From IMG/VR virus record IMGVR_UViG_2778261224_000004: a stretch of DNA of 47,754 nt. One strand, written 5' to 3'. Below, piece after piece: positions 1 to 47,754 of the stretch (positions are counted from its first letter, which is position 1; each line of letters starts with the position of its first letter). Position numbers and translations under genes: made by a program. This stretch comes from a virus. Taxonomy: Duplodnaviria > Heunggongvirae > Uroviricota > Caudoviricetes. The notes beneath the pieces are model-generated. The model had not been told where the DNA came from. It ran no database searches and saw only the letters and a program-made list of their open reading frames with translations.

Positions 1-77
1 GATATTGTTATAGGGCATAATGTGACCATTGGTTGTAATGCCACCATTCTTGGTGGCAAAGTGCGTATAGGAAACAA
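1..77. repeat. Terminal duplication: bases 1-77 identical to 47678-47754 (circular-closure overlap)
   Basis: Same 77-nt string at both window ends, in the same reading frame of the acetyltransferase gene. Confidence 0.9.
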
Positions 78-20888: not shown

Positions 20889-21449
20889 TTATTCTTCCTG
20901 CTTAATAAATCGGGATTCCTGGAGCGCCTGAAGCGCAAAATTAATCTCGTCTTCAATAATGCGCTCGATCTCCCTGGCTGTTTTGCCTTCACAACGGGGA
21001 GCTGCTCTTGGAGCAATACTAAATAAGCGGCTACGCAATTCATTAGCTGCCAGAAATGCATCATCCCTGACCGCATCTTTAGCGATGAGAGAGCCTTCCT
21101 TTTCTTCAAATTCAAGGCGTTTCAGCTTTGCCTGATAAATTTTTTCTGCGGTCTTAGCCTTGTTGAATTGCACCGCAACACCGGAAGTACCACCAGCTAA
21201 TCCGGCATCATCAGCGGGTAACTCTGGTTGTTCCGAAGATATCCCATGCCCTCTTTTTCCATTTTCAGCAGATACCTCACGACCAACCTGTCGGCTCGCT
21301 TCATAAGCCGCACTGGCTTTATCAAAATCCAGCTTGCCGCTTTTCAGCACTGGAATGCGACCGGAACGACAGAGCTTCGTAACCATTGCCGGAGAAATAC
21401 CTTTCCGGCGGGCAAACTCTGACTTACTGACGATGGCCATTACTTGCAA
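20889..21449 (-). CDS. Terminase small subunit (Nu1-like, N-terminal HTH)
   Basis: 186-aa ORF directly upstream of large terminase; N-terminal HTH-like SKSEFARRKGISPAMVTKL. Confidence 0.6.
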   Translation of the reverse strand: MQVMAIVSKSEFARRKGISPAMVTKLCRSGRIPVLKSGKLDFDKASAAYEASRQVGREVSAENGKRGHGISSEQPELPADDAGLAGGTSGVAVQFNKAKTAEKIYQAKLKRLEFEEKEGSLIAKDAVRDDAFLAANELRSRLFSIAPRAAPRCEGKTAREIERIIEDEINFALQALQESRFIKQEE

Positions 21450-22030
21450 CCATTAGCAAGATACTGAACAAATCCCTCATGCGTTTCATGCGCGTCGTGG
21501 TACTGACGATAAACATCCAGCAACAATGCAATTTCCATATCCGTCGCGGGAATACGTTCTTTATCAATAGCCAGGTACTTAATTTGAACAACAGGGGAAG
21601 AATTATCGTCTTCTTCCTGCGGCTGTTCATCGCTTAACATTTCGTCAAGCTCTGCATCATTAAACCCAAGCAGATCAATATCAAAATCATCATCCATTAA
21701 CTCTTTGACTTCTTCGGCCAGAAGCTGCATATCCCAGCCAGCATTTAAGGCCAGCTTGTTATCTGCAATCCTGTAAGCCTTCTTCTGTTTTTCAGAAAGG
21801 TTACTCAACCGAATCGCCGGAACTTTATCCATTTCCAGAATTTCGGCTGCTGCAAGCCGCCCATGCCCCGCAATCAGTTCATTCTTTTCATCGATCAGCA
21901 CAGGATTAGTGAAACCGAACTCACGGATACTGTTCACCAACTGTTCAACTTGCTCATCTGAATGAGTCCGTGAATTTTTGGCATATCTGAGCAACTTACC
22001 GACTGGTAAATATTCGATTTTTAGAGCCAT
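21440..22030 (-). CDS. ParB-like nuclease domain (ParB/Srx fold) protein
   Basis: 196-aa ORF; motif ..YAKNSRTHSDEQVEQLVNSIREFGFTNPVLIDE..LIAGHGRLAAA..; paralog of 24697..25320. Confidence 0.7.
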   Translation of the reverse strand: MALKIEYLPVGKLLRYAKNSRTHSDEQVEQLVNSIREFGFTNPVLIDEKNELIAGHGRLAAAEILEMDKVPAIRLSNLSEKQKKAYRIADNKLALNAGWDMQLLAEEVKELMDDDFDIDLLGFNDAELDEMLSDEQPQEEDDNSSPVVQIKYLAIDKERIPATDMEIALLLDVYRQYHDAHETHEGFVQYLANGCK

Positions 22031-22587
22031 TTTTTAACCGCCATAACACAACAGGTTAAAGAAAACTGTTTAACTTATTGATACTAAAAGAGAAAAATGA
22101 CGATCTTTTTACTCATAAAAAATCACACAAACCAGCATAATTATCTGATTTTATTAAGTTTTTATAAGTAAAAAGGATCTTGCGATGGTGTTTTGGTTAA
22201 AAGATTGGATGTATTTGCATGATTTATAACGATTTTTATCAGAACAACATTACATTGGTTAAAGATCTGCGCGTATCTTGATGATCTAAAAGAAAATTTT
22301 CTACTTTCTTTTTACCAGCACAAATACAGCAAAAAATCACGTTTTCCCGATATTTTTCAATGAGATGAGTAAATTTCTTTTACCGCAACTTTTAACCTAA
22401 CTTTTTTCACGTTTAGCTAGCCGAACATCGGGGTTCGAATGACCCGCATCCAACGCTTTTGGCCAGAAGGACCCAATTCTGCCGGACGATGAAACGATGC
22501 TCGTGCTCCCCCACAGACAGCCAGCGAGCGACGCTACAGAACACAGTGAATACACTCTGCATAACAACACCATCAACCACACGATGA
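22031..22587. other. 557-bp AT-rich non-coding gap inside the late gene block (candidate cos/packaging or regulatory region)
   Basis: No convincing ORF; AT-rich with several GATC sites. Confidence 0.3.
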
Positions 22588-23307
22588 TTAACGAGAGAAG
22601 GTCTTAGAAAGAATGTCATCAATCGCCTTTGTGACTTCATCAGCAAACGCATCCTCACCAGCACGCAGCGCCACGCCATGCCAATCAAGACGCTGCGAAT
22701 AGTTAGGTTGCTGGATAAACGTAAGGATCAACGTAGGACGCCGCCCAACGCGCTGCCAGACGCCTGGTTGAAGCGGGTTACTTGTACCAGGTCGAACAAC
22801 AAAAAACTCCGTAGGCTTGCCCTGACGGCGATTTTGATGCGCATCTCGCTGAACTCTTAGGCCAGATAAGACCTGCTGTAATTGCCCCCGCGAAATATTC
22901 CCGTATTTGTCCAGCTTTGCGCCGGGACCAGGAGCAAGCTGCCAGCCGTTAGGCAAATATCCACCAGCCCTTAGCGCCCCTTCTGAGCGTTTGTACTGTC
23001 GTTGGCCACCTTCGATTTGCGGAGTCAACGTTACAGGGGCTGGCGTTCCTCCCCATTCACGAGCATACACAATGGCTGTAGGATCACTCTTCTTTGCGGC
23101 CAAAACGTAAGTAGAGTTCTGAATCCACGGCGTGGGCCTGTCAAATACCCGATTAATTTCATTCTTAATCGCAGCCTGAGAAGCCTTTGCCGTTCTGGTT
23201 GCCGCAAGCGCCATTGCGAACGGCAATTCGCGTTCTTCAAGGCGCTGGAGTTGTCGTTGAATATCCTGAGAAGAAAAATCCATCTTTATCTCAATTCTGT
23301 CAGCCAC
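22588..23307 (-). CDS. Hypothetical protein
   Basis: 239-aa ORF between ParB-methyltransferase fusion and the AT-rich gap. Confidence 0.45.
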   Translation of the reverse strand: MADRIEIKMDFSSQDIQRQLQRLEERELPFAMALAATRTAKASQAAIKNEINRVFDRPTPWIQNSTYVLAAKKSDPTAIVYAREWGGTPAPVTLTPQIEGGQRQYKRSEGALRAGGYLPNGWQLAPGPGAKLDKYGNISRGQLQQVLSGLRVQRDAHQNRRQGKPTEFFVVRPGTSNPLQPGVWQRVGRRPTLILTFIQQPNYSQRLDWHGVALRAGEDAFADEVTKAIDDILSKTFSR

Positions 23308-23323
23308 CAGCGCCTCCTACACA

Positions 23324-24703
23324 CTACTTAATCAACGGCCGGAAAGCCGCCAGCACATCATCAGATCGTCCGATTGTTGAACCACCAGGCAACGGCAACT
23401 CAAACTCAAAACGAACAGCTTTCTCCAGACTCGCCCAACTAAGGGAATCATCGTTAATAACGTGCAAATACCAGCTCTTACAGTTGAATATTGACCGCTT
23501 AATCCTGAAACCATGTACACGACACAACTGCTTCACTTCATCATCAGAGTGAAACTTCTGGTAAAACCAGTGCCCCTTCCGGTACAACGCGGTAAAACCG
23601 TTATGATCAATAAAATAAAGCCGGCTTTTGGAACTCGCAGCTTGTGTTTGCTTCAGGACTGTTTCCAGCTCTCCACGGCTACGGCCAGAAAAGAATATTG
23701 ACCCACCAGCTTTACACAAGCCTTTCAGAACCGTCAGAACGGACCATTCAGCCTCGACACTATCGACCGAGTTCAAAACGCTATCGCAAATCACGTAGTC
23801 GTAACGCCCTCGCGTTTTTAAGTCGTCCACCAGCGTATCAATCATCCGGTTTGTTGCGGTCCTATCCAGAGTGTTTCCAGCGCCCTTACGGCGGAAAAGC
23901 TCGAGATCATGCAGGTTATATCCCTTTGCCCTGAGCATTCGCGCGTAGTCTCCCTGCCCCGAACCAAAATCAATTCCTCTTGGCGTCTTGGCAACGATCG
24001 GGAGGATCAACGACTCATACAGATTTGATTTCAGGCTGCCACCATTACGCAACCGCATAAGCTGCGCATACGTCTGGATGTATGTTGTTTTCTCCAGATG
24101 AGAATACTCAAATACACCATAAGTTTTATTCAGATAACTTTGGTATTTTTCCTTCTCAACATCAGGGATCACAAACACCGTTAGCGGTGTGCGCGTCATT
24201 TTCGCTGCTAATGCATACTGAGCACAGTGAATAACCTCACCAGACTGAGTAGCAACACAACCACCCCACGGACCATACTTGATAACCAGTTCCGCTATGT
24301 TCTTTCGAACATATGCCATTTTCGCGCGCATATTGCCTGAGATCTGGCTTGCCGATACCTGAACAAAACCATGCTTATCTTCCAGACCGGACACCCTGCA
24401 ACGCTCATCTCCGCTATCAAAATCCGTTCCGTTATGCAGTTGGTTAAACCGTACTTCGTCGTATACCGTCGTTTCACAGGGCAACACATACACCGCAGCA
24501 CGCGTTATTCCCAACTTACGTAGCGCCTTCGTCCTTTGGTGTCCCGCCACCAGCAAATCGCCGCGCACTATCAATGGCTTCACAAGCCCCAGCTCCCTGA
24601 CGCTTTCCGCCAGCCTCGCAAGATCATCCTCACCGATAAAACGCGGGTTATATTCCGCGCCGCGTAGGTGCGTTATGTCGTAATTGAGGTGAAGCATCAG
24701 CAC
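23324..24703 (-). CDS. ParB-like N-terminal domain fused to a class I SAM-dependent methyltransferase domain
   Basis: 459-aa ORF; N-terminal ParB-like ..LVAGHQRTKAL..; C-terminal Rossmann methyltransferase motif I GIDFGSGQGDYA and motif II-like YDYVICDSVL; no DPPY/DPPW or PCQ motif seen. Confidence 0.65.
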   Translation of the reverse strand: MLMLHLNYDITHLRGAEYNPRFIGEDDLARLAESVRELGLVKPLIVRGDLLVAGHQRTKALRKLGITRAAVYVLPCETTVYDEVRFNQLHNGTDFDSGDERCRVSGLEDKHGFVQVSASQISGNMRAKMAYVRKNIAELVIKYGPWGGCVATQSGEVIHCAQYALAAKMTRTPLTVFVIPDVEKEKYQSYLNKTYGVFEYSHLEKTTYIQTYAQLMRLRNGGSLKSNLYESLILPIVAKTPRGIDFGSGQGDYARMLRAKGYNLHDLELFRRKGAGNTLDRTATNRMIDTLVDDLKTRGRYDYVICDSVLNSVDSVEAEWSVLTVLKGLCKAGGSIFFSGRSRGELETVLKQTQAASSKSRLYFIDHNGFTALYRKGHWFYQKFHSDDEVKQLCRVHGFRIKRSIFNCKSWYLHVINDDSLSWASLEKAVRFEFELPLPGGSTIGRSDDVLAAFRPLIK

Positions 24704-25320
24704 ACCTCCCCAGCCAGCAATGCGGATACAAATCCGATATAGCTGCCATTATCATCAACATAACGAGACACCGCGCAGTCAAAACGATCCGCTTCCTCAT
24801 CCGTTGCCGGGATTTTATGACCTCCAAATGACAGGTACTGAACTTTTACGCCTGATTTGGCCTCATCCTTCTCAAATGGGATATCCATACCCTCTGTGTC
24901 ATCGTAGACCGCCGCACTCAATAAGTTATCCAGTTCGCGCTGAGTAAAACCAATTGAGTCCAGAGAAAAATCATCGGCCGCAAGATCTGCAAGCTCCGCG
25001 CTTAACAACTCTTCATCCCAACCAGCATTCAGCGGAATACGGTTGTCGGCCAGACGATATGCCTTCTTCTGATTCTCCGTTAGCCCAGCCAGAACAATGC
25101 AGGGAACATCATCCATCCCCAACTGAGTGGCCGCAGCAATTCGACCATGACCAGCAATTACAACGTTGTTCTCGTCTATCAGGATCGGATTAGTCCATCC
25201 GTACTCCTGTATGCTGGCAACAATCTGATCTACCTGCTCCACGGAGTGTGTGCGAGCGTTCTTTTCATAACCAATCAACACAGAAAGTGGTAAAGAAACC
25301 ACATTAAGTTGTTTTGTCAT
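24697..25320 (-). CDS. ParB-like nuclease domain (ParB/Srx fold) protein
   Basis: 207-aa ORF; ..YEKNARTHSVEQVDQIVASIQEYGWTNPILIDE..VIAGHGRIAAA.. Confidence 0.7.
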   Translation of the reverse strand: MTKQLNVVSLPLSVLIGYEKNARTHSVEQVDQIVASIQEYGWTNPILIDENNVVIAGHGRIAAATQLGMDDVPCIVLAGLTENQKKAYRLADNRIPLNAGWDEELLSAELADLAADDFSLDSIGFTQRELDNLLSAAVYDDTEGMDIPFEKDEAKSGVKVQYLSFGGHKIPATDEEADRFDCAVSRYVDDNGSYIGFVSALLAGEVC

Positions 25321-25554
25321 GCCGTTTATCCGCTAAAATCCCCTCGCTTGTGCAAGCAAGTGGGCCTCGGTTTGTATCCACGGCACCCTGTGGGTATGAA
25401 TGACTGTCGTCAGGTCGCAACTGACGGCGGTCGCCCACCTTCCAGTAATAAAAAAGCCACCAGCATTAACTCCACAATGAGCTGGAGTTAATGAGGCAGC
25501 TTTGGTTTGCGCATTATCGCAGCCCCTGATAAGCACAAGAGCTGCTGTAATGCG

Positions 25555-25965
25555 TTACTCTGGTATCAAACAGATGTGGCCGTTATTTACCTCAATACGG
25601 GAATATTCCGGCTTACCATCCACGATTCCGGTAATGACAAGTTCGCCATCAGGCGACCATTCTTCTTTGTCGTCTTCAAGTACCGCGCCTTCTGGCAAAT
25701 CAATACAGGCAAAAACAGGGCAGCCAGGATGACGTTTATCCTCCATCGCAATCAGCATCGACTCACCGAACCACTCTGTGGTAGCACGGCCATCAGCCGC
25801 CTGATAGTGAATCAGATACTGGTTTTCGCCATTTGCATACTGAGCACGGGCTTTAACTTCTCCCCATTCGTCACTGATACGCATTGTTACCAGTTGGGAT
25901 AATTCAAACTTAAACGGAACAGCATCTGCACCAATGGCAATCGGTTTATCTTCTTTCTTTTCCAT
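25555..25965 (-). CDS. Hypothetical protein (start moved to Met preceded by AGGTGA RBS)
   Basis: ORF track gives 25555..26034; the upstream part overlaps an intrinsic terminator, and the Met at 25965 has an RBS 5 nt upstream. Confidence 0.45.
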   Translation of the reverse strand: MEKKEDKPIAIGADAVPFKFELSQLVTMRISDEWGEVKARAQYANGENQYLIHYQAADGRATTEWFGESMLIAMEDKRHPGCPVFACIDLPEGAVLEDDKEEWSPDGELVITGIVDGKPEYSRIEVNNGHICLIPE

Positions 25966-25975
25966 AACATCACCT

Positions 25976-26006
25976 GAAAATAAAAAGCCCCGCGACACCG
26001 CGAGGC
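25976..26006 (-). terminator. Rho-independent terminator (minus strand)
   Basis: 8-bp GC-rich stem (one mismatch) with 4-nt loop followed by TTTTTATTTT on the minus strand. Confidence 0.55.
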
Positions 26007-26014
26007 TGTAAGAG

Positions 26015-26167
26015 TTACTTTCGATAGAAATCAAGGCGCAATTGCTCCCGCTTACGCCGAAAAGCTCTCTGCGCCACTAAGATGCGCCACAGGACACCAG
26101 CGATAACCACCAGCGAGATACAAAAACACACGGCCACAACCATCAGAAAAATGCCAACACCATTCAT
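26015..26167 (-). CDS. Small hydrophobic (membrane) protein, 50 aa
   Basis: Hand translation MNGVGIFLMVVAVCFCISLVVIAGVLWRILVAQRAFRRKREQLRLDFYRK; ATGA start/stop overlap with upstream ORF; not in ORF track (<60 aa). Confidence 0.4.
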   Translation of the reverse strand: MNGVGIFLMVVAVCFCISLVVIAGVLWRILVAQRAFRRKREQLRLDFYRK

Positions 26168-26421
26168 GAAACTATCCATTCTTCAATGAATATCTCCAGT
26201 AATATCAAGAGATACGCCGTTCCCAGCGCGGTTCCTACCGATATAGCTAAGACAAACCTCAAAGATAACGAGGTGTCCTTCGCTTTTCTCCAGACGTAAG
26301 CGCCAGCCAGAAATACCAACAAATCTCTTATTGGAAGCGGAAACCAGAACAAATCACTCGGCAAGTCCACGGTTATATCCTTCCATTCATTTTTATCGGG
26401 TGACCAGATAGCCTTAGGCAA
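26164..26421 (-). CDS. Hypothetical membrane protein
   Basis: 85-aa ORF with hydrophobic C-terminal half; start uncertain (overlaps previous ORF by 49 nt). Confidence 0.4.
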   Translation of the reverse strand: MPKAIWSPDKNEWKDITVDLPSDLFWFPLPIRDLLVFLAGAYVWRKAKDTSLSLRFVLAISVGTALGTAYLLILLEIFIEEWIVS

Positions 26422-26828
26422 TTGAGCTGTAAAGCTCCTGTATCAACTAAATGATCAACTAACATGATTAGAGATTCATATTCAGCCAGATAGCTAACCT
26501 GACGCATTCGACCGCCGTTGTTCTCCAGAATGTCAGCCACCTTTGCAGCCAACTCGCTTAGACAGAAGAACTTATTCCCATATATCGTTTTATACTCGCG
26601 CTTCTGGCATTCTTCGGCTTGCGGCTGGTTATCGAGAGCTATCAGCGACCGATGGCTATCAATGAAGTCCACAATCTCATTCAGGCATTCTTTAGCTGCC
26701 TCATCGTGACTTTTTCCGTATGCTTCACGGAGGACTTTCATCCTCATCATTGCTCCGTCACATATAGTCGAAAGCGCGTAAAGCACATCACTAACCGCCA
26801 TTTCTTTTTTGGTGCTTGTCGAAGGCAT
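26373..26828 (-). CDS. Hypothetical protein
   Basis: 151-aa ORF in accessory block. Confidence 0.45.
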   Translation of the reverse strand: MPSTSTKKEMAVSDVLYALSTICDGAMMRMKVLREAYGKSHDEAAKECLNEIVDFIDSHRSLIALDNQPQAEECQKREYKTIYGNKFFCLSELAAKVADILENNGGRMRQVSYLAEYESLIMLVDHLVDTGALQLNCLRLSGHPIKMNGRI

Positions 26829-26902
26829 CCCATGTTCTCCTTTGTCTGGATGTAAAAAAGCCCCGGCAATTGCCGAGGCTCGTTGTTCGTTATCGTTACG
26901 GT

Positions 26903-27103
26903 TTAATGCTCGCGTCGTCCGGCGACAACTTCGGATTTGTATTTCAGGTCGCCCAGCAAGAATTGCAGTTTAAGCATCTTTGCCGCCGTGTAGTTCCCTG
27001 ATTCCACAACCTCTTTCATGAGGTCATAAACGGCCGCTACATCATCAGCCAGGAACTCTTTGCGTTGCTGCTCAGTCGCACGTTTGAAGGAAATACGCAT
27101 CAC
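26903..27103 (-). CDS. Hypothetical protein
   Basis: 66-aa ORF, ATGA overlap with upstream gene. Confidence 0.4.
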   Translation of the reverse strand: MMRISFKRATEQQRKEFLADDVAAVYDLMKEVVESGNYTAAKMLKLQFLLGDLKYKSEVVAGRREH

Positions 27104-27369
27104 TCATCATCTCCTGCCGCACATACAACCTCACAAAAAAAATCAGCAGAATGTTTCTCCTTGAACGAATGACGCTCAAAACCGCACTCAATATCAGGCG
27201 CAAAAACATCCACCACATACGGTCTTTCAGAATGTTTGTTTTCCCAACGATAAACCGTAGTGACGTTGAAATGTTTTAACGCTTCACGGAACTCAACGCT
27301 GCCCGTCAGGTTTTTTGAGGTCAGGTATTGCAGGAGGTTTTTTACTACTTCACGGTCTTGTACTTTCAT
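27100..27369 (-). CDS. Hypothetical protein, first gene after repeat copy A
   Basis: 89-aa ORF; GGAG RBS 8 nt upstream of ATG inside the conserved 112-bp cassette. Confidence 0.45.
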   Translation of the reverse strand: MKVQDREVVKNLLQYLTSKNLTGSVEFREALKHFNVTTVYRWENKHSERPYVVDVFAPDIECGFERHSFKEKHSADFFCEVVCAAGDDE

Positions 27370-27478
27370 CGGGTTATCTCCGGTTTAACCAGGGCGGGTA
27401 TCGCTCGGTTTCGGGTATAACCATAGGAAATTTTTTCCCATCTGTAAAGCACTTTTTATATAAATCTATAATTATATA
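27367..27478 (-). promoter_or_regulatory. Conserved ~112-bp promoter/leader cassette, copy A
   Basis: More than 95 percent identical to 34245..34355 and 43156..43267; contains AT-rich motif, TTTACA-N17-TATGGT promoter-like hexamers, leader and RBS. Confidence 0.55.
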
Positions 27479-27481
27479 ATT

Positions 27482-28069
27482 CTATGACACTTGCCAGAGA
27501 GCATCATGCAACTGGATACCTCCGTTGCACTGGTTGCCCCAGCCATGCCAGCCATCAGGTAAATCACCGCGAGCAAACAGCTCAATACGAGGAACATCGC
27601 CTAACAGCTTTACCAGCTTGTCACGGACCACATCAGGCTTCCGAGAATGCTCCAGACGAGGCGATGTAAACGACTGAATGATCCCCGCATCAAGACGTGT
27701 CGGTAGTTTGCCTTTCACTGCAAACAAGCAATCTTCACTGTTTGCACGAGTCATATGCCCCATCCCCATCACCAGCTTATCTGGTTGTCGGCTACCACAT
27801 TTGTTCCATGTGAAGCCCTTCATGGTCATCAGCCTGAATCCCCATGCTTTCACCACCAGCAACGCTTCTTCTGGCTGAGTCGGAACCCACCACATGGCCA
27901 ACAAACACGATTCAGGATTAGCAAGCTGCCAGACAGGAATACGAGCAATATCCTCAGCTTTCATCGTTGGATACTTAAAACCAGCGCCACGATTCCCATC
28001 CTTACACTTGTCTTTGTATTCCCAGGGGGGATCTGCATAAATCAGATTAAACAATGCAATTGCCTCCAT
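27482..28069 (-). CDS. MT-A70-family N6-adenine DNA methyltransferase
   Basis: 195-aa ORF with catalytic motif YADPPWEY near the N-terminus. Confidence 0.7.
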   Translation of the reverse strand: MEAIALFNLIYADPPWEYKDKCKDGNRGAGFKYPTMKAEDIARIPVWQLANPESCLLAMWWVPTQPEEALLVVKAWGFRLMTMKGFTWNKCGSRQPDKLVMGMGHMTRANSEDCLFAVKGKLPTRLDAGIIQSFTSPRLEHSRKPDVVRDKLVKLLGDVPRIELFARGDLPDGWHGWGNQCNGGIQLHDALWQVS

Positions 28070-28376: not shown

Positions 28377-28452
28377 TGGTGGCCCCTACCGGATTTGAAC
28401 CGATGACCGTGCGATTATGAGTCGCCTGCTCTAACCACTGAGCTAAGGGGCC
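28377..28452 (-). tRNA. tRNA with CAT anticodon (Met or lysidine-type Ile2), encoded CCA end
   Basis: Hand-folded cloverleaf GGCCCCTTAGCTCAGTGGTTAGAGCAGGCGACTCATAATCGCACGGTCATCGGTTCAAATCCGGTAGGGGCCACCA: 7-bp acceptor stem, D arm, anticodon loop CTCATAA, T loop TTCAAAT. Confidence 0.85.
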
Positions 28453-28545: not shown

Positions 28546-28621
28546 TGGTTGATGCGTGCGCCCATGAGAAAAGCGCATAGAATGTTGTAACTATATATTT
28601 ATATAATTATAGAAATATATA

Positions 28622-28831
28622 TTACTTTGGACAGTTGATTTCCCATGCCATGTTATGAGCCAGAATATCTTTCTTTGTCTGGCGGTCCATAACATCGATG
28701 TCGTGATCAGTCAGGTAGATGGGCTTTACCCAATCACAGGCGGTATCAACCACCACCGGGACGCTTCCACGACTCCCGCAGCTCGCGATCAACATCGTCA
28801 TCAGCCATATGGTTAACACTCTGCTGTACAT
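28622..28831 (-). CDS. Rz1-like outer-membrane lipoprotein (o-spanin candidate)
   Basis: 69-aa ORF with signal peptide and lipobox LIASC, in the +1 frame overlapping the 3' end of the Rz-like gene. Confidence 0.5.
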   Translation of the reverse strand: MYSRVLTIWLMTMLIASCGSRGSVPVVVDTACDWVKPIYLTDHDIDVMDRQTKKDILAHNMAWEINCPK

Positions 28832-30241: not shown

Positions 30242-30272
30242 AAAAAAAAAGCCCCGCCGAAAAAGGCAGGGC
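30242..30272 (-). terminator. Rho-independent terminator (minus strand) just upstream of the lysis cassette
   Basis: Minus strand GCCCTGCC-TTTTTC-GGCGGGGC stem-loop (8 bp incl. one G-U) followed by nine T. Confidence 0.7.
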
Positions 30273-30418
30273 TTCATAAAGCAACAAATTACGCGGTAAT
30301 CGCTTAACGCAGTTTTACTACGTTAAATGAAACACTACACCCAGTTACCACCTAAAACAAGGTTTCCCCATAAAAAAACCTTCATATCGTGGTTAATCGA
30401 TCAATAAAAAAGCAATGT

Positions 30419-32824: not shown

Positions 32825-33123
32825 GCCACAGCCCCTCTCAACGGCTTAACTTTGGCTAATAAGGTGTTAAACAACATGGAGTTAGGATTCATGCCAAATG
32901 GCAATTCCGGTTTAGCGGAGTAGTACAGGCAACCATTTATTTTCCTGGTTGTTATCTGTCCTTCGGCAACCATGCTTCTCAGTCTGCAACGCATAGAGTT
33001 CTGCGACACACCAATGTGCTCCGCGATTACGTCCACTTTTGAACATGGGTGATCGGTCAGGAAATTAATCACATCTTGGGGGTTAATAATTTTGCGTTTC
33101 ATTGTCGAGGCGTCCTTATACAT
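32821..33123 (-). CDS. Hypothetical protein, possible winged-helix DNA-binding regulator
   Basis: 100-aa ORF; own AT-rich motif copy immediately upstream (33125-33150). Confidence 0.4.
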   Translation of the reverse strand: MYKDASTMKRKIINPQDVINFLTDHPCSKVDVIAEHIGVSQNSMRCRLRSMVAEGQITTRKINGCLYYSAKPELPFGMNPNSMLFNTLLAKVKPLRGAVA

Positions 33124-33179
33124 TTATATAAATATATAATTCTATATATGGCGGGAGACGTCCCGCCGTAGGCTTACTG

Positions 33180-34247
33180 TCAGGCTTTCAATAGCGATTC
33201 TTTTAGATATCGGGCATCAGCCAGGGCGTTTGGAGTAATCTTGCGAACCCATGCATTACGGGTTGGACTCCACTTAAAGGCGCGTGATTTAAGCAGCGAA
33301 CGAATGTTTGCCTCTGGTTTGCCAGGGAAATAAAACAGGATGCGGTTATCCTCTGGATCTATCTCCATAGAAAAGCCGTCGTATTCTTCGCGCTGTGCTC
33401 CTGTTACAGACTTGACCGATTCAAGCTCCTTAATACGGCTCTGTAGTCGTTTGATTTCGGCGTTATTGTTGCTCAGTGCGTATGAAGGGAATCCGATGCG
33501 CCCACAGAAATCTCCGGCCAGTAACTCTTTGGCTTCGCTTTCTGTAAACCTGAGATCGATTAATGCAGAAAGCTGCTGTATTTGGTCTTTTTTGTATTTG
33601 CGAATGGCCTTATTTGCGGCCTTCATTTTGACGTGTGACTTCATGCAGCCTTGCAGCTTACGAAGCAACTTAAATAGCGCATCAGGATCATCAGACGAAA
33701 TTCCATTACGACCAACACCTGCGGCTTTGCTCTCGTAGTGTGATGCTTTACTTTCGCATTCAACAAACGCTTTTCTGAATAACGCATCAGCTTTAGACAA
33801 ACGGCGGCGATGGCCTTTCGCGCTATAATGGTCAACTAAAATCGGCTGGCCTAACGGGATCACATCCAACAGGTCATGCGCTCGCTTATGCGCTACCGCA
33901 CCTTCTTTTCTGGCTTTTTCTGCACGAGCAATATATCGGGCAAGACGCGCGTTCTGGCGTTCCTGATAGGTGTTTACGTAATCATCTCCGCGCTGCTGCT
34001 GTTCAAGCCATGCTTTGCGCAGATCTTCTGTTACGTCCACCAGCTCCGCAGGGATACAACCAGTTTGGGCTTCATAAGAGTAACCATCCTCATAGATACG
34101 CCCATCGTCTTCAACAAAGAAAAAGGTTTCGTGCTCATCGCTTTTGACCATACGACCATTAACATGGCGTAATAGGTAGCCAGTATCAGTGCTTAACAGG
34201 CTGTTAGGGTTGTTGATCCAGTCAGAAATAATTACTTGTTTATTCAT
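33180..34247 (-). CDS. Hypothetical protein (DUF3560-like by recollection), first gene after repeat copy B
   Basis: ORF track gives 33180..34301; start moved to Met 34247, which aligns with the start codons of the other two cassette copies and has a GGAG RBS. Confidence 0.45.
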   Translation of the reverse strand: MNKQVIISDWINNPNSLLSTDTGYLLRHVNGRMVKSDEHETFFFVEDDGRIYEDGYSYEAQTGCIPAELVDVTEDLRKAWLEQQQRGDDYVNTYQERQNARLARYIARAEKARKEGAVAHKRAHDLLDVIPLGQPILVDHYSAKGHRRRLSKADALFRKAFVECESKASHYESKAAGVGRNGISSDDPDALFKLLRKLQGCMKSHVKMKAANKAIRKYKKDQIQQLSALIDLRFTESEAKELLAGDFCGRIGFPSYALSNNNAEIKRLQSRIKELESVKSVTGAQREEYDGFSMEIDPEDNRILFYFPGKPEANIRSLLKSRAFKWSPTRNAWVRKITPNALADARYLKESLLKA

Positions 34248-34355
34248 CAGATTTCTCCGGTTTAACCAGGGCGGGTATCGCTCGGTTTCGGGCATAACCA
34301 TAGGAAATTTTTTCCCACCTGTAAAGCACTTTTTATATAAATCTATAATTATATA
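34245..34355 (-). promoter_or_regulatory. Conserved ~112-bp promoter/leader cassette, copy B (immediately downstream of Q-like gene)
   Basis: Near-identical to copies A and C. Confidence 0.55.
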
Positions 34356-34416
34356 TTTATAGATTTTCGATGTTCCCGATGTCTACACACCATCAAAACA
34401 GCTCAAAATGACACTT

Positions 34417-36276: not shown

Positions 36277-36767
36277 TCCTCAAGCCTCCCAAGTGCTGAA
36301 CGCCGGGCGTTGCTAATCTCCTTATGAATCAGCTCGATATCGCTGGAATCTTTATTCTTAAGCTCCAGCACGGTAATCGCATCACGAACCTCTGAAACGG
36401 TTACGTGTGAGTGTTTCCAGCGAGCAATGAATCGCGGACCGCGTAGATTGCAACGCTCCGCAGGCATCCCCAGCTCAGAGAAAACCGCTTTCAGCCTTGA
36501 TAAGCAGTTAACAGGGAGATTCCCTTTGATCTTGTTCTGCCGAACCGATGTGCCATCGCTACGCTGGCGCTGACGTTCGGCAAAATCTGCCGCCCATTGC
36601 TGGACGTTAATCCGGCCTTCCGAATACGCCACCAGCAGCGTCAGGTTATCCGCACGAGGGAATCTCTCGAAGCGATACCAGGCACCAATCAGTGATGACG
36701 TAAAGCCAAACTTTCTGGCAACACCAATTTGGCCTCCATTTTCGTCAACCCACTCCTGAAAGGTCAT
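36273..36767 (-). CDS. Cro/CII-like early regulator (N-terminal HTH), divergent from repressor gene
   Basis: 164-aa ORF transcribed away from the CI-like gene; N-terminal ..GGQIGVARKFGFTSSLIGAWY.. HTH-like. Confidence 0.45.
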   Translation of the reverse strand: MTFQEWVDENGGQIGVARKFGFTSSLIGAWYRFERFPRADNLTLLVAYSEGRINVQQWAADFAERQRQRSDGTSVRQNKIKGNLPVNCLSRLKAVFSELGMPAERCNLRGPRFIARWKHSHVTVSEVRDAITVLELKNKDSSDIELIHKEISNARRSALGRLEE

Positions 36768-36786
36768 TTAACGAACTCCAGTTAAA

Positions 36787-36904
36787 ACCACGATACGTGG
36801 TATTAAAACCACATATCGTGAGTTTTTCAATGGGCGAAACAAAAAATAACCTTCTATTTGTGGTCCACCTCTCGTCTTACCATGTGAAAACCACTAAATG
36901 TGGT
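36787..36904. promoter_or_regulatory. Immunity-region operators: palindromes ACCAC-N5-GTGGT between divergent repressor and Cro-like genes
   Basis: Sites at 36787-36801 (ACCACGATACGTGGT), 36808-36822 (imperfect) and 36890-36904 (ACCACTAAATGTGGT). Confidence 0.6.
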
Positions 36905-36941
36905 AATGTATAAATAACCCACCATTCACGATTGATGAGAC

Positions 36942-37598
36942 ATGAAAAGCAACGACGAGAACATCAAGAAAGAAATAGGTCTGCGCATTCAGACTCTACG
37001 GAAACAATCCGGCATGACTGCCGGAGATCTCCAGCAAGTCACTGGAATAGGCTTAAGCACCTTGCAGAACTATGAGGCCGGATTAAGACAACCATCTATA
37101 CCTGCCATCAAGAAAATCGCGCACGCCCTGAAAGCATCAGCGCCTTATATCGCGTGCTTAACAGATAACCCGTTCCCACCCCAGAATACTAACGCTCCTG
37201 TTATTCCTGGGCTTGTAGCTATAAAAAATGACATAGCATCGCACGCCGGAGAAAAGCCAGTGCTGGCGATAGAACAGGAGATTCTACGAAGCAAGAACAT
37301 CAACCCATCGTCTCTGTCAGTTCTCCAGAGCAACGATGAGTTAATGTCACCAACAATATCCCCAGGCTCCCAAGTCCTGATTAATACAGACGATACAGAG
37401 ATTCATGAGGGGATCTATGCCCTTGAAGACAGAAATGGCCTGGTTGTTTTGAGGCACTGTAGAGTCATACCGGGTGACAATGCTGTTATGCTGTCAACCG
37501 AAAGGGATGCTGAAATGAACACTAAGCATCTGAATAACGAGGAATTTAAGCGTTATAAAGTTCTTGGCCGCGTAGTTAGTGTTGTCAACTGGTTATGA
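36942..37598 (+). CDS. CI-like repressor (HTH_XRE N-terminus, LexA/S24-like C-terminal domain)
   Basis: 218-aa ORF; ..QTLRKQSGMTAGDLQQVTGIGLSTLQNYEAG.. HTH and S24-like C-terminal domain. Confidence 0.8.
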   Translation: MKSNDENIKKEIGLRIQTLRKQSGMTAGDLQQVTGIGLSTLQNYEAGLRQPSIPAIKKIAHALKASAPYIACLTDNPFPPQNTNAPVIPGLVAIKNDIASHAGEKPVLAIEQEILRSKNINPSSLSVLQSNDELMSPTISPGSQVLINTDDTEIHEGIYALEDRNGLVVLRHCRVIPGDNAVMLSTERDAEMNTKHLNNEEFKRYKVLGRVVSVVNWL

Positions 37599-38069: not shown

Positions 38070-38089
38070 AAGCGGGCTAACGCCCGCTT
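38070..38089 (+). terminator. Hairpin (candidate terminator) after the 124-aa ORF
   Basis: AAGCGGGC-TAAC-GCCCGCTT perfect 8-bp stem; downstream tract AT-rich rather than a clean T run. Confidence 0.45.
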
Positions 38090-38200
38090 ATATGATTATA
38101 GATTTATATAATTATATAAAACGCTTTTCATCAGCCAAAAAGTTGGTTATGCTTACCTCGTTCTATAAATATAGATTTATAGAATTATATAACCAAACAC
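38085..38200 (+). promoter_or_regulatory. Two copies of the AT-rich ATTATAGATTTATAtAA motif upstream of parA (promoter/centromere candidate)
   Basis: Motif at about 38090-38115 and 38165-38190; a third copy lies upstream of parG at 38861-38900. Confidence 0.45.
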
Positions 38201-47296: not shown

Positions 47297-47754
47297 ATGC
47301 TGAATAATAAAGATATGAATATTAATGAACTTAAAGACTGTATTCACTATGAAGTAATCGGTAGCGAGCGTCCTTTCTCCTGGCGAAAGGCAATTGTTCG
47401 CGCAATAAAACATAGAAGGGTTCGTTATTTATTTTGGTGGCGCATAGCCAAATACCTTTTTGATAAAGGCGGATACTGTCGGAAGATTGCGGGAAAAATA
47501 GAACGTTTCATTCTTGATAAATATAATGTAACAGTCCCTTTAACTGTAAATATAGGGAAAGGCTTTGATATTTCTTATCTCAACAGTGTTGTTATCGGTC
47601 ACAAAGTAACAATCGGTGAAAATTGTTCAATTAAGCCCGGAGTAACTATTGGACTTCGCGGGGAATTTAATGATATGGATATTGTTATAGGGCATAATGT
47701 GACCATTGGTTGTAATGCCACCATTCTTGGTGGCAAAGTGCGTATAGGAAACAA
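47297..47754 (+). CDS. Hexapeptide-repeat O-acetyltransferase, N-terminal part (continues at 78..183 across the circular junction; about 187 aa in total)
   Basis: ATG at 47297; translation MLNNKDMNINELKDC...GKGFDISYLNSVVIGHKVTIGENCSIKPGVTIGL... with hexapeptide repeats; reads in frame into the terminal duplication. Confidence 0.75.
   Translation, partial: MLNNKDMNINELKDCIHYEVIGSERPFSWRKAIVRAIKHRRVRYLFWWRIAKYLFDKGGYCRKIAGKIERFILDKYNVTVPLTVNIGKGFDISYLNSVVIGHKVTIGENCSIKPGVTIGLRGEFNDMDIVIGHNVTIGCNATILGGKVRIGN

What the first reader, a model, noticed from the sequence alone, without database searches (positions are those of the whole stretch)
25555..27369. Accessory block of six small genes (two membrane peptides) between late promoter cassette A and the packaging genes
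Six ORFs of 50-151 aa with no recognisable family follow promoter cassette A; several overlap by ATGA, and two are small hydrophobic proteins (50 and 85 aa). An intrinsic terminator (25976-26006) sits inside the block. Cargo at such positions in lambdoid late operons is often superinfection-exclusion or defence/anti-defence genes; nothing here matches a system I can name.
Basis: inference. Interest (0 to 1): 0.55.

Follow-up and report, generated by a model that had tools for sequence, protein, structure and literature searches.

The report
Six small phage-plasmid accessory genes
Six small genes of unknown function, divided into three units by transcription terminators, lie between the lysis and DNA-packaging genes of a 47.7-kb E. 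coli phage-plasmid; they are real, fast-evolving and individually dispensable, but nothing links them to any named defence, anti-defence or exclusion system.

Summary
All six ORFs lie on the minus strand: g1 89 aa, g2 65 aa, g3 151 aa, g4 (85 aa as read, more likely 68 aa from GTG 26370), g5 50 aa, g6 136 aa.

The window is a complete circular phage-plasmid. About 76 complete E. coli genomes, including ATCC 25922, carry near-identical copies.

Three intrinsic terminators, conserved in position, split the block into g1-g2 | g3-g4-g5 | g6.

All six genes recur in the same order in diverged Salmonella relatives. They share 25-53% amino-acid identity there, against 76-82% for the flanking methyltransferase and ParB genes. 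The never-annotated g4 shows pN/pS 0.23 in frame and 1.1-1.3 out of frame.

Among nine backbones that are more than 97% identical, the units are deleted, truncated or swapped. This includes phages deposited as isolates, so the genes are accessory, not morphogenetic.

g6 belongs to the phiP27 L33 family. That family typically sits at the lysis/terminase junction of lambdoid prophages and after lysB in P2-like prophages. g2-g5 are confined to this phage-plasmid family.

Pfam, NCBIfam, PADLOC, PDB, an exhaustive HMMER search, AlphaFold2 and Foldseek assigned no function.

Verdict: an ordinary but well-defined moron-like accessory region. The defence, anti-defence or exclusion roles remain untested guesses.

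The parts
27370..27479 (-). Promoter cassette A: AT-rich 8-mer repeats, TTTACA-17-TATGGT with a GGAAA-N3-TTTCC dyad in the spacer, a roughly 47-nt structured 5'UTR, and GGAG 9 nt before the g1 ATG.
   Evidence: It is one of three 114-nt copies. The scan finds a promoter-like site at 27448-27420. The UTR folds with z = -3.3. It is about 90% nt identical in Salmonella relatives.
27100..27369 (-). g1: 89 aa, acidic (pI 5.5), soluble.
   Evidence: PHROG 6143, unknown function, E = 2.9e-53. It is 45% identical to a 97-aa Salmonella orthologue in the same position. Its N-terminal domain matches the N-terminus of Erwinia phage Pavtok gp62. It is absent from 3 of 9 close relatives. pN/pS is 0.22.
26903..27100 (-). 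g2: 65 aa, basic (pI 9.0), predicted helical. Its start overlaps the g1 stop (TGATG).
   Evidence: PHROG 6621, unknown function. The Salmonella orthologue is 36% identical and has the same start/stop overlap with g1. pN/pS is 0.05. It is found only in this phage-plasmid family.
26848..26881 (-). Terminator T1: 10-bp stem with 7 GC pairs and a T6 run. It is followed by ACATCCA and the g3 Shine-Dalgarno sequence.
   Evidence: Found by the scan. The hairpin is nearly identical in Salmonella Weltevreden plasmid 3 although g3 itself has diverged.
26373..26828 (-). g3: 151 aa, soluble, helical. It is a modular protein with 99-, 151-, 251- and 323-aa alleles.
   Evidence: PHROG 14707. The word-indexed search found only 16 relatives and the exhaustive HMMER search only 6, all from contigs of about 45-49 kb or from fragments. 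The alignment shows alleles differing by whole modules. The AF2 model has pLDDT 49 with four helices.
26164..26370 (-). g4: 68 aa from the GTG start (85 aa from TTG 26421). It has two hydrophobic segments separated by a basic loop, RKAKDTSLSLR. It is not annotated in the four annotated relatives whose feature tables were read across this interval.
   Evidence: Hydropathy profile. ATCC 25922 carries an ATG-started 70-aa allele and Salmonella a 67-aa ATG allele with an ATGA overlap to g3. pN/pS is 0.23 in frame versus 1.13 and 1.29 out of frame. It is present in 59 plasmids and absent from lineage L031.
26015..26167 (-). g5: 50 aa, with one transmembrane helix and a conserved basic C-terminal tail (RILVAQRAFRRKREQ...). 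It shares an ATGA overlap with g4.
   Evidence: Maximum KD19 is 3.13 and pI is 11.3. Orthologues of 50 and 55 aa with the same tail motif occur in two Salmonella-type lineages. It is truncated in Yersinia phage vB_YpM_41.
25976..26007 (-). Terminator T2: 9-bp stem with 7 GC pairs, then TTTTTATTTT.
   Evidence: Found by the scan. Salmonella has a terminator with a different stem at the same g5|g6 position.
25555..25965 (-). g6: 136 aa, very acidic (pI 4.5, net charge -14), predicted beta-rich. It is a member of the phiP27 L33 family with a C-terminal extension of about 40 aa.
   Evidence: PHROG 1935, E = 2.3e-66. 89 homologues were found. Their contexts are given. It is replaced by a DUF2513 gene in 3 of 9 close relatives. 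The AF2 model has pLDDT 42 and is all-beta.
25447..25553 (-). Tandem hairpins after g6: a long hairpin at 25553-25511, then terminator T3 (stem 25500-25456, T-run 25455-25450).
   Evidence: The intergenic region folds with z = -5.3. Four to five T3 base pairs show compensatory changes between the E. coli and Salmonella lineages.

Best explanation
The block is a string of three terminator-delimited, moron-like accessory units (g1-g2 | g3-g4-g5 | g6). They sit in the leader between the lysis module and the ParB/methyltransferase/packaging genes of a circular lambda-head, P2-tail phage-plasmid.

Shown: all six are translated genes under purifying but relaxed selection. The units are dispensable one by one in phages deposited as isolates and in maintained plasmids. 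They evolve about twice as fast as their neighbours.

Inferred: transcription starts at the sigma-70-like cassette-A promoter. T1, T2 and T3 then grade it, so g1-g2 are made whenever the promoter fires. g3-g5, g6 and everything downstream would need read-through or antitermination.

Proposed roles, all inferred. g3-g4-g5 acts at the inner membrane. g4 would be an N-out/C-out hairpin, g5 a single-pass peptide with a conserved basic cytoplasmic tail, and the modular helical g3 their cytoplasmic partner. The most likely effect is on the host envelope or on incoming competitors, that is, superinfection exclusion or modulation of membrane energetics. g6 is a cytoplasmic, acidic late protein of the L33 family. 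Many temperate phages carry an L33 gene at the end of the lysis cassette, and it probably helps lytic development in some hosts. None of the six is a structural or assembly protein.
For: Coding status: synteny at 25-53% identity in Salmonella lineages, with start/stop coupling preserved; pN/pS values.

Dispensability and mosaicism: the presence/absence matrix and relatives' annotations. Yersinia phages vB_YpM_39 and vB_YpM_41 lack g6 or g1, or carry a broken g5.

Terminators: with covariation. Promoter cassette.

Membrane character and charge. Conserved g5 tail. Modular g3.

g6 position next to five different lysis/terminase module combinations and in P2-like prophages.

No structural-protein or morphogenesis family hits.
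Against: There is no expression data, so promoter timing and terminator efficiency are unknown. There is no sequence or structural similarity to any exclusion, holin, toxin or anti-defence protein. The AF2 models are of low confidence. GC content does not differ from the genome and the block is old in the family, which is unlike textbook recently acquired morons. T1 lies upstream of g3 with no room for a separate promoter, so g3-g5 is not an autonomous promoter-gene-terminator unit. g4 is missing in one lineage that keeps g3 and g5, which weakens the idea of an obligate three-part machine.
Confidence: 0.5

Rival explanations
1. Lysis-accessory module. g4 and g5 (a 68-aa two-segment peptide plus a 50-aa one-helix peptide with a charged tail) and g6 tune holin triggering or lysis timing, acting as antiholin or holin-modulator-like factors for the upstream lysis cassette.
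For: The block lies 1.2-3 kb downstream of the holin-holin-endolysin-spanin cassette. L33-family genes directly follow spanin or lysB genes in lambdoid and P2-like prophages, sometimes with overlapping stop and start. The size and topology of g4 and g5 resemble small holins (the holin comparison is from general knowledge).
Against: No holin or antiholin family is hit. A tRNA, a methyltransferase gene and a separate promoter cassette separate the block from the lysis genes. In ESSI2-type phages L33 sits between terS and the head-completion gene, with no lysis genes nearby. g4, g5 and g6 are each lost in phages deposited as isolates or in relatives.
Confidence: 0.17
2. Anti-defence islet. Together with the flanking MT-A70 and ParB-methyltransferase genes, the small proteins neutralise host restriction or other defence systems during lytic growth. 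The very acidic g6 could act as a DNA mimic.
For: The block is flanked by two DNA methyltransferases that PADLOC classes as Type II MTases. g6 has pI 4.5 and net charge -14. The genes diverge fast relative to their neighbours and show allelic replacement, as in arms-race loci. g3 carries variable repeat modules.
Against: No known anti-defence family or fold is matched. pN/pS is below 1 for all six genes. Two of the six are membrane peptides, which is unusual for known anti-restriction proteins. Charge alone is not diagnostic.
Confidence: 0.17
3. Plasmid-maintenance or abortive toxin module. g5 is a hok/type-I-like membrane toxin whose translation is coupled to g4 (as hok is to mok). It serves post-segregational killing or abortive infection.
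For: g5 is 50 aa, with a single helix and a basic tail, and its translation is coupled to an upstream overlapping ORF. The element lives as a plasmid and already carries ryfA- and RelE/ParE-type loci.
Against: No antisense-RNA family or promoter is detected in the block. The g5 tail is conserved in sequence, which suggests a specific partner and not generic pore formation. g5 is truncated in Yersinia phage vB_YpM_41.
Confidence: 0.08
4. Ordinary morphogenesis or packaging accessories, or non-functional ORFs.
For: The block lies in the late-gene direction, upstream of packaging genes. L33-like genes are often adjacent to terminase small-subunit genes or to an HNH endonuclease.
Against: Units are absent or swapped in phages deposited as isolates and in close relatives, and there are no structural-family hits. 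Against 'non-functional': the order is conserved across lineages, and pN/pS is below 1 only in the predicted frame.
Confidence: 0.05

Closest known systems
Morons of lambdoid phages (HK97/lambda sense: lambda bor and lom, HK97 gp15). Comparison from general knowledge.
   Same: Small non-structural genes are embedded in the late-gene direction between conserved modules and bounded by intrinsic terminators. They are present or absent among close relatives. The first unit (cassette-A promoter, g1-g2, T1) has the promoter-gene-terminator layout.
   Different: Base composition does not deviate from the genome. The whole array is syntenic in diverged Salmonella relatives. g3-g5 and g6 have upstream terminators but no recognisable promoter of their own. 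Expression in the lysogen is untested.
phiP27 L33 / PHROG 1935 family (unknown function)
   Same: g6 matches at E = 2.3e-66 over residues 1-121 and is 84% identical to phiP27 L33 over 96 residues. It occupies the same place, after the lysis genes and before the packaging genes.
   Different: g6 carries an extra C-terminal extension of about 40 aa that only some members share. Here a methyltransferase gene, a promoter cassette and five more genes separate it from the lysis cassette.
Small inner-membrane superinfection-exclusion proteins (T4 Imm and Sp, P22 SieA, HK97 gp15). Comparison from general knowledge.
   Same: g4 and g5 are short membrane proteins encoded in an accessory region of a temperate phage.
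   Different: No sequence or profile similarity is found, and no function-annotated PHROG family is matched. No phenotype is known. A soluble modular partner, g3, is co-encoded.
Small holins and pinholins (for example S21-68). Comparison from general knowledge.
   Same: g4 is 68 aa with two hydrophobic segments. g5 has one transmembrane helix plus a highly basic C-terminal tail. Both lie near a lysis cassette.
   Different: No holin family is hit. Two bona fide holin genes already exist upstream. The charged tail and the two-helix hairpin are on separate polypeptides. g4 is dispensable in one lineage.
hok/mok-type type I toxin loci. Comparison from general knowledge.
   Same: g5 is a 50-aa single-helix peptide whose start overlaps the end of an upstream ORF.
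   Different: No antisense RNA or Rfam family is found. The conserved cytoplasmic basic tail differs from Hok's periplasmic C-terminus.

Membership tests
Moron (autonomous accessory transcription unit in a phage late region) | Present or absent between otherwise near-identical relatives | tested here: met
   g1 is absent from 3 of 9 close relatives, g6 is replaced in 3 of 9, g3 has long and short alleles, and g2-g5 are absent from pAR-0407-1.
Moron (autonomous accessory transcription unit in a phage late region) | Own promoter upstream | tested here: inconclusive
   Cassette A is a sigma-70-like match upstream of g1. No promoter-like site is found for g3-g5 or g6. Activity was not measured.
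Moron (autonomous accessory transcription unit in a phage late region) | Intrinsic terminator downstream | tested here: met
   T1, T2 and T3 follow g2, g5 and g6.
Moron (autonomous accessory transcription unit in a phage late region) | Base composition distinct from neighbouring genes | tested here: not met
   The genes have GC 0.43-0.50, against 0.446 for the genome and 0.48-0.50 for the flanks.
Moron (autonomous accessory transcription unit in a phage late region) | Expression from the repressed prophage | not testable with these tools
   This needs RNA-seq or reporter assays in a lysogen.
phiP27 L33 / PHROG 1935 (g6) | Significant full-length profile match | tested here: met
   E = 2.3e-66 over residues 1-121 of 136; 89 homologues.
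Known anti-phage defence systems (PADLOC-DB v2) | Profile match of any component | tested here: not met
   None of the six proteins matches any family at E <= 0.1. Only the flanking methyltransferases match.
Holin or antiholin families | Pfam or PHROG holin profile match, and adjacency to the endolysin gene | tested here: not met
   g4 and g5 have no holin hits. The endolysin lies about 3 kb upstream, beyond a tRNA, a methyltransferase gene and a promoter cassette.
Superinfection-exclusion protein families annotated in PHROGs | Profile match | tested here: not met
   g4 has no family. g5 has only a chance-level hit at E = 0.027 to an unknown-function family.
Type II toxin-antitoxin pair (g1-g2) | Match to a toxin or antitoxin family | tested here: not met
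   There are no Pfam, NCBIfam or PADLOC hits. Only the two-gene overlap resembles a TA layout.
Virion or morphogenesis proteins | Indispensable in phages deposited as isolates, or a match to a structural family | tested here: not met
   Yersinia phages deposited as isolates lack g1 or g6 or have a broken g5. No structural-family hits.

The most novel reading that the evidence does not exclude
g3-g4-g5 is an undescribed three-component, membrane-anchored system: a modular cytoplasmic helical-repeat protein plus two tiny inner-membrane peptides. It would be specific to a clinically widespread E. coli/Salmonella phage-plasmid family and would mediate superinfection exclusion, abortive killing or control of membrane energetics. 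Its dose would be set by conserved terminators downstream of a promoter cassette that carries the same AT-rich 8-mer repeats as the plasmid's par locus. Separately, the L33 family (g6) would be a new, broadly distributed late-phase host-manipulation or anti-defence factor.
Probability: 0.2. Interest if true: 0.55.

Novelty: new member of a known kind. Interest (0 to 1): 0.3.

Why it matters
Plasmids of this family occur in about 1.4% of complete E. coli genomes, including the reference strain ATCC 25922. They also occur in Salmonella and Klebsiella, and as phages deposited as isolates on Yersinia pestis. If any unit proved to be an exclusion, anti-defence or lysis-control factor, it would affect how these phage-plasmids spread and how their hosts respond to other phages. 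The L33 family in particular is carried by many temperate phages of Enterobacteria at a fixed position and has no assigned role. As it stands, the region is a typical unknown-function accessory stretch. Its value is as a compact, well-delimited target for genetics: three units, natural knock-out alleles, and an accessible host strain.

Tried and rejected
- **Profile searches.** Pfam, NCBIfam and PADLOC found nothing for the six proteins; PHROGs gave only unknown-function families.
- **PDB sequence and profile searches.** Nothing meaningful. g3 hit only de novo helical bundles at E >= 0.025.
- **Exhaustive HMMER search of 1.84 billion representatives with g3.** Six proteins were returned. One is a spurious repeat protein and the rest belong to the same family.
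- **AlphaFold2.** The g6 model (35-sequence alignment) had pLDDT 41.8. The g3 model (13 sequences) had pLDDT 49.3. Both are too poor to interpret. Foldseek against BFVD gave no hit at E <= 0.001.
- **Domain-fusion clue for g1.** Pavtok gp62 has no Pfam domain in its C-terminal part.
- **Possible HTH (TVYRWEN) and Cys/His motifs in g1.** Rejected, because they are not conserved in homologues.
- **Searches for relatives outside the family.** GTDB species genomes gave no g3 relatives and IMG/VR gave only close ones.
- **tblastn of g2 and g5 against phages.** Only the Yersinia phages matched.
- **Rfam, at gathering threshold and at E <= 0.1.** No RNA family in the block.
- **Literature.** No paper cites the RefSeq protein accessions searched for g1, g2, g3 and g6, or DUF2513, and none was found describing this phage-plasmid family. 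pSLy3 turned out to belong to the unrelated SSU5 supergroup.
- **Simple site counts for g4 across six close sequences.** Uninformative. They were replaced by Nei-Gojobori estimates with off-frame controls.
Full report
**What the window is.**
Bases 1-77 repeat exactly at 47678-47754, so the window is one complete circular replicon of about 47.68 kb. A 98% identical E. coli plasmid, NZ_CP173594.1, is annotated with:
- RepA, ParA, an XRE-type repressor and a RelE/ParE toxin;
- lambda-like terminase, portal, ClpP-type protease and capsid genes;
- a P2-like contractile tail;
- two holins, a GH108 endolysin, an MT-A70 methyltransferase and three ParB/Srx-domain proteins.

The block region matches 76 of 5,426 complete E. 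coli genomes. Of the 220 matching places, 215 are on plasmids of about 47-49 kb. It also matches plasmids of Klebsiella aerogenes, E. fergusonii, E. albertii and Salmonella. Three phages deposited as isolates on Yersinia pestis match too: vB_YpM_39, 41 and 44. The element is therefore a phage-plasmid with a lambda-type head and a P2-type tail, not a classical lambdoid prophage.

**Checking the observation.**
All six ORFs are on the minus strand.

| gene | coordinates | length |
|---|---|---|
| g1 | 27369-27100 | 89 aa |
| g2 | 27100-26903 | 65 aa |
| g3 | 26828-26373 | 151 aa |
| g4 | 26421-26164 | 85 aa from TTG |
| g5 | 26167-26015 | 50 aa |
| g6 | 25965-25555 | 136 aa |

- The g1 stop and g2 start share one base (TGATG).
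- g4 and g5 share ATGA.
- g5 has one strong hydrophobic helix (KD19 3.13) and a basic tail (pI 11.3).
- g4 has one strong and one weaker hydrophobic segment separated by RKAKDTSLSLR.
- g1, g3 and g6 are acidic and soluble, and g6 carries a net charge of -14.

The reported terminator is real: stem 26007-25986, 7 GC pairs, then TTTTTATTTT. A second, stronger one lies at 26881-26858 between g2 and g3. A third follows g6, with stem 25500-25456 and a T-run, preceded by another long hairpin. That intergenic region folds with z = -5.3. The block is thus partitioned as g1-g2 | g3-g4-g5 | g6.

**Are the ORFs genes?**
Yes. In Salmonella Weltevreden plasmid 3, the flanking MT-A70 and ParB genes are 76% and 82% identical to the window's. 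The same six ORFs lie between them in the same order, at 25-53% identity (g4 about 50% by tblastn). They show the same g1/g2 and g3/g4 ATGA-type overlaps and an 11-nt g4/g5 overlap. Terminators sit in the same three gaps. Four to five T3 base pairs change on both sides between lineages while pairing is kept.

g4 is not annotated in the four annotated relatives whose feature tables were read across this interval. Three lines of evidence support it:
- ATCC 25922 carries an ATG-started 70-aa allele behind a different g3 allele.
- Salmonella carries an ATG-started 67-aa allele, and a gene caller called 67-aa and 50-aa products in L034.
- Across nine close relatives, pN/pS is 0.23 in the g4 frame but 1.13 and 1.29 in the other two frames.

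These alleles align from about residue 18 of the 85-aa reading. This favours the GTG at 26370, which has GGAAGGA 7 nt upstream and gives a 68-aa product.

pN/pS for the other genes:

| gene | pN/pS |
|---|---|
| g1 | 0.22 |
| g2 | 0.05 |
| g3 | 0.30-0.47 |
| g5 | 0.66 (few substitutions) |
| g6 | 0.28 |
| the two methyltransferases | about 0.05 |

**Accessory and mosaic.**
Nine relatives have flanking genes 98-99% identical to the window's. Among them:
- g1 is missing in three.
- g6 is replaced by a DUF2513 gene in three.
- g3 occurs as a 151-aa or a 99-aa allele.
- The end of g5 is replaced by a tail-fibre-assembly fragment in one, and g5 is truncated in vB_YpM_41.

Salmonella pAR-0407-1 keeps only g1 and g6. 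Lineage L031 keeps g1, g2, g3, g5 and g6 but lacks g4. Several of these variants are deposited as phage isolates, so none of the six is required for making particles. GC content (0.43-0.50) does not differ from the genome's 0.446. Together with the Salmonella synteny, this means the array is an old, plastic part of the family's backbone and not recent cargo.

**What the proteins resemble.**
Pfam, NCBIfam and PADLOC give nothing for any of the six. PHROGs gives only unknown-function families. PDB sequence and profile searches give nothing meaningful.

- **g6** belongs to the phiP27 L33 / PHROG 1935 family, with 89 homologues across E. coli, Salmonella, Enterobacter and Yersinia. More distant matches occur in Burkholderia and Bordetella phages. 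In lambdoid prophages the homologue lies between the lysis cassette and the small terminase gene. This holds for five different combinations of lysis and terminase modules. In P2-like prophages it starts at the stop codon of lysB. In ESSI2-type phages it lies between terS and the head-completion gene. It is therefore a widespread late-region gene of unknown role.
- **g1**'s N-terminal 80 residues match the N-terminus of the 227-aa gp62 of Erwinia phages Pavtok, PEp14 and Stean, which has no known domain either.
- **g3** has relatives only in this phage-plasmid family, even in an exhaustive search of 1.84 billion representatives. Its alleles of 99, 151, 251 and 323 aa differ by whole helical modules of about 70 aa and by a C-terminal ITxNAPAVT-type tail.
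- **g2, g4 and g5** are also confined to the family. The cytoplasmic tail of g5, RI(L/F)V(A/T)Q...(R/K)RE(Q/R)(F/L), is conserved in three lineages.

AlphaFold2 gave low-confidence models: g6 at pLDDT 41.8, all-beta, and g3 at pLDDT 49.3, four helices. Foldseek found nothing.

**Expression logic (inferred).**
Directly upstream of g1 is one of three 114-nt cassettes, at 27366-27479, 34243-34356 and 43155-43268. Each consists of:
- AT-rich 8-mer repeats;
- TTTACA-17-TATGGT, with a GGAAA-N3-TTTCC dyad in the spacer;
- a structured 5'UTR (z = -3.3);
- a GGAG ribosome-binding site.

The cassette is about 90% identical between the E. coli and Salmonella lineages, although g1 itself is only 45% identical. 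It is therefore a constrained regulatory element. Whether it is 'late' cannot be told from sequence.

The same 8-mer repeats flank parA and precede two other genes. The CI-type operators in the immunity region (AAACCAC-N6-GTGGT) are different. A strong terminator lies about 20 nt upstream of the first holin gene, which recalls lambda pR'-tR'. No Q-like protein was recognised in the adjacent upstream genes scanned.

If cassette A fires, g1-g2 are made, and T1-T3 should progressively reduce transcription of g3-g5, g6 and the downstream ParB, methyltransferase and packaging genes. Antitermination could override this, or another promoter could serve the downstream genes. I could not resolve which.

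**Best explanation and rivals.**
- **Best reading, confidence about 0.5 for the general part.** The block is three terminator-delimited, moron-like accessory units that are not morphogenetic. g3-g4-g5 acts at the inner membrane, and g6 is a cytoplasmic late-phase factor of the L33 family. The specific guess that g3-g5 mediates exclusion or alters membrane energetics is much less certain.
- **Lysis-timing accessory, 0.17.** Position, and the size and topology of g4 and g5, argue for it. Missing family hits, the separating genes and the dispensability of the units argue against it.
- **Anti-defence islet with the flanking methyltransferases, 0.17.** The acidic g6, the fast divergence and the allelic swaps argue for it. 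The lack of any similarity and the presence of membrane peptides argue against it.
- **hok-like toxin or plasmid-maintenance module, 0.08.**
- **Morphogenesis accessories or non-genes, 0.05.** The mosaicism and the selection tests contradict these two readings respectively.

**Novelty and verdict.**
The genes are accessory and unnamed, but no positive evidence exists for defence, anti-defence or exclusion, and one gene belongs to a large known family of unknown function. This is a new member of a known kind, namely an accessory, moron-like stretch in a temperate phage late region. Interest is modest at 0.3. It would rise if the g3-g5 unit or the L33 family were shown to have a phenotype.

Noticed in passing
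window 1-77 and 47678-47754: The two ends are identical 77-bp stretches, so the window is a complete circular replicon of about 47,677 bp. It is a phage-plasmid with RepA, ParA, a lambda-type head and a P2-type tail. Near-identical plasmids occur in 76 of 5,426 complete E. coli genomes, including ATCC 25922.
   Followed up: yes
window 27366-27479, 34243-34356, 43155-43268 (minus strand): There are three copies of a 114-nt promoter and 5'UTR cassette: TTTACA-17-TATGGT, a GGAAA-N3-TTTCC dyad in the spacer, a structured leader and GGAG. The cassette is about 90% nt identical in Salmonella relatives, far more conserved than the genes it precedes. It precedes g1, a DUF3560 gene and a 126-aa ORF.
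   Followed up: partly
window 27456-27487, 28583-28630, 33108-33147, 34333-34364, 38088-38200, 38869-38908, about 43245: Arrays of AT-rich 8-bp repeats (TTATATAA / TTATAGAT) flank parA and its downstream 82-aa gene. They also sit at the upstream edge of all three promoter cassettes and before two other genes. They may be binding sites for a partition or global regulator protein, dispersed at promoters much as the centromere sites of N15 are.
   Followed up: partly
window 30248-30275 (minus strand): A very strong intrinsic terminator (11-bp stem, T9) lies about 20 nt upstream of the first holin gene (start 30228). It follows a 380-nt non-coding stretch. This is a lambda pR'-tR'-like layout that implies antitermination, but no Q-like protein was recognised.
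   Followed up: partly
window 40227-40299, 40324-40412 (+), 39559-39855 (-): Rfam finds isrK and C4 antisense RNA, the P1/P7-type immunity I RNAs. They lie upstream of a 393-aa ORF (40654-41835) that is annotated as ORF6N/Rha-like in relatives. Rfam also finds a ryfA-type sRNA locus.
   Followed up: no
window 36767-36942: Three CI-type operators, AAACCAC-N6-GTGGT, lie in the divergent region between the XRE-family repressor gene (36942-37598) and the leftward early operon. They are distinct from the AT-rich 8-mer repeats.
   Followed up: no
window 28377-28452 (minus strand): A tRNA with a CAT anticodon lies between the lysis genes and the MT-A70 gene. ARAGORN calls it tRNA-Met. PGAP annotates the orthologue as tRNA-Ile, which implies a lysidine-modified anticodon.
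   Followed up: no
window 25321-25553 (minus strand): The g6-ParB intergenic region is highly structured (MFE -96.7 kcal/mol, z = -5.3). It holds a long hairpin, terminator T3 with compensatory changes, and a conserved segment just upstream of the ParB start that contains a GCTTG-CA-CAAGC palindrome. No Rfam family matches.
   Followed up: partly
window 21440-25320 (minus strand): Three ParB/Srx N-terminal-domain proteins lie between the block and the terminase genes, at 24697-25320, 23324-24703 and 21440-22030. The second is fused to a SAM methyltransferase domain. A 239-aa ORF in the same stretch matches a PHROG annotated as 'minor tail protein'.
   Followed up: partly
L017+L016 (Salmonella Weltevreden plasmid 3), L031, L034; window 26373-26828: g3 orthologues exist as 99-, 151-, 251- and 323-aa alleles. 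They differ by whole helical modules of about 70 aa and by the presence of a C-terminal ITxNAPAVT-like tail. The window's allele looks like a deletion derivative that lost this tail and the original ATG of g4.
   Followed up: partly
L007-L014, L018, L035-L039: L33-family (g6-like) genes sit at the lysis/terminase junction next to at least five different combinations of holin/endolysin and small-terminase families. In P2-like prophages they start exactly at the lysB stop codon. This is a strikingly fixed position for a gene with no known role.
   Followed up: partly
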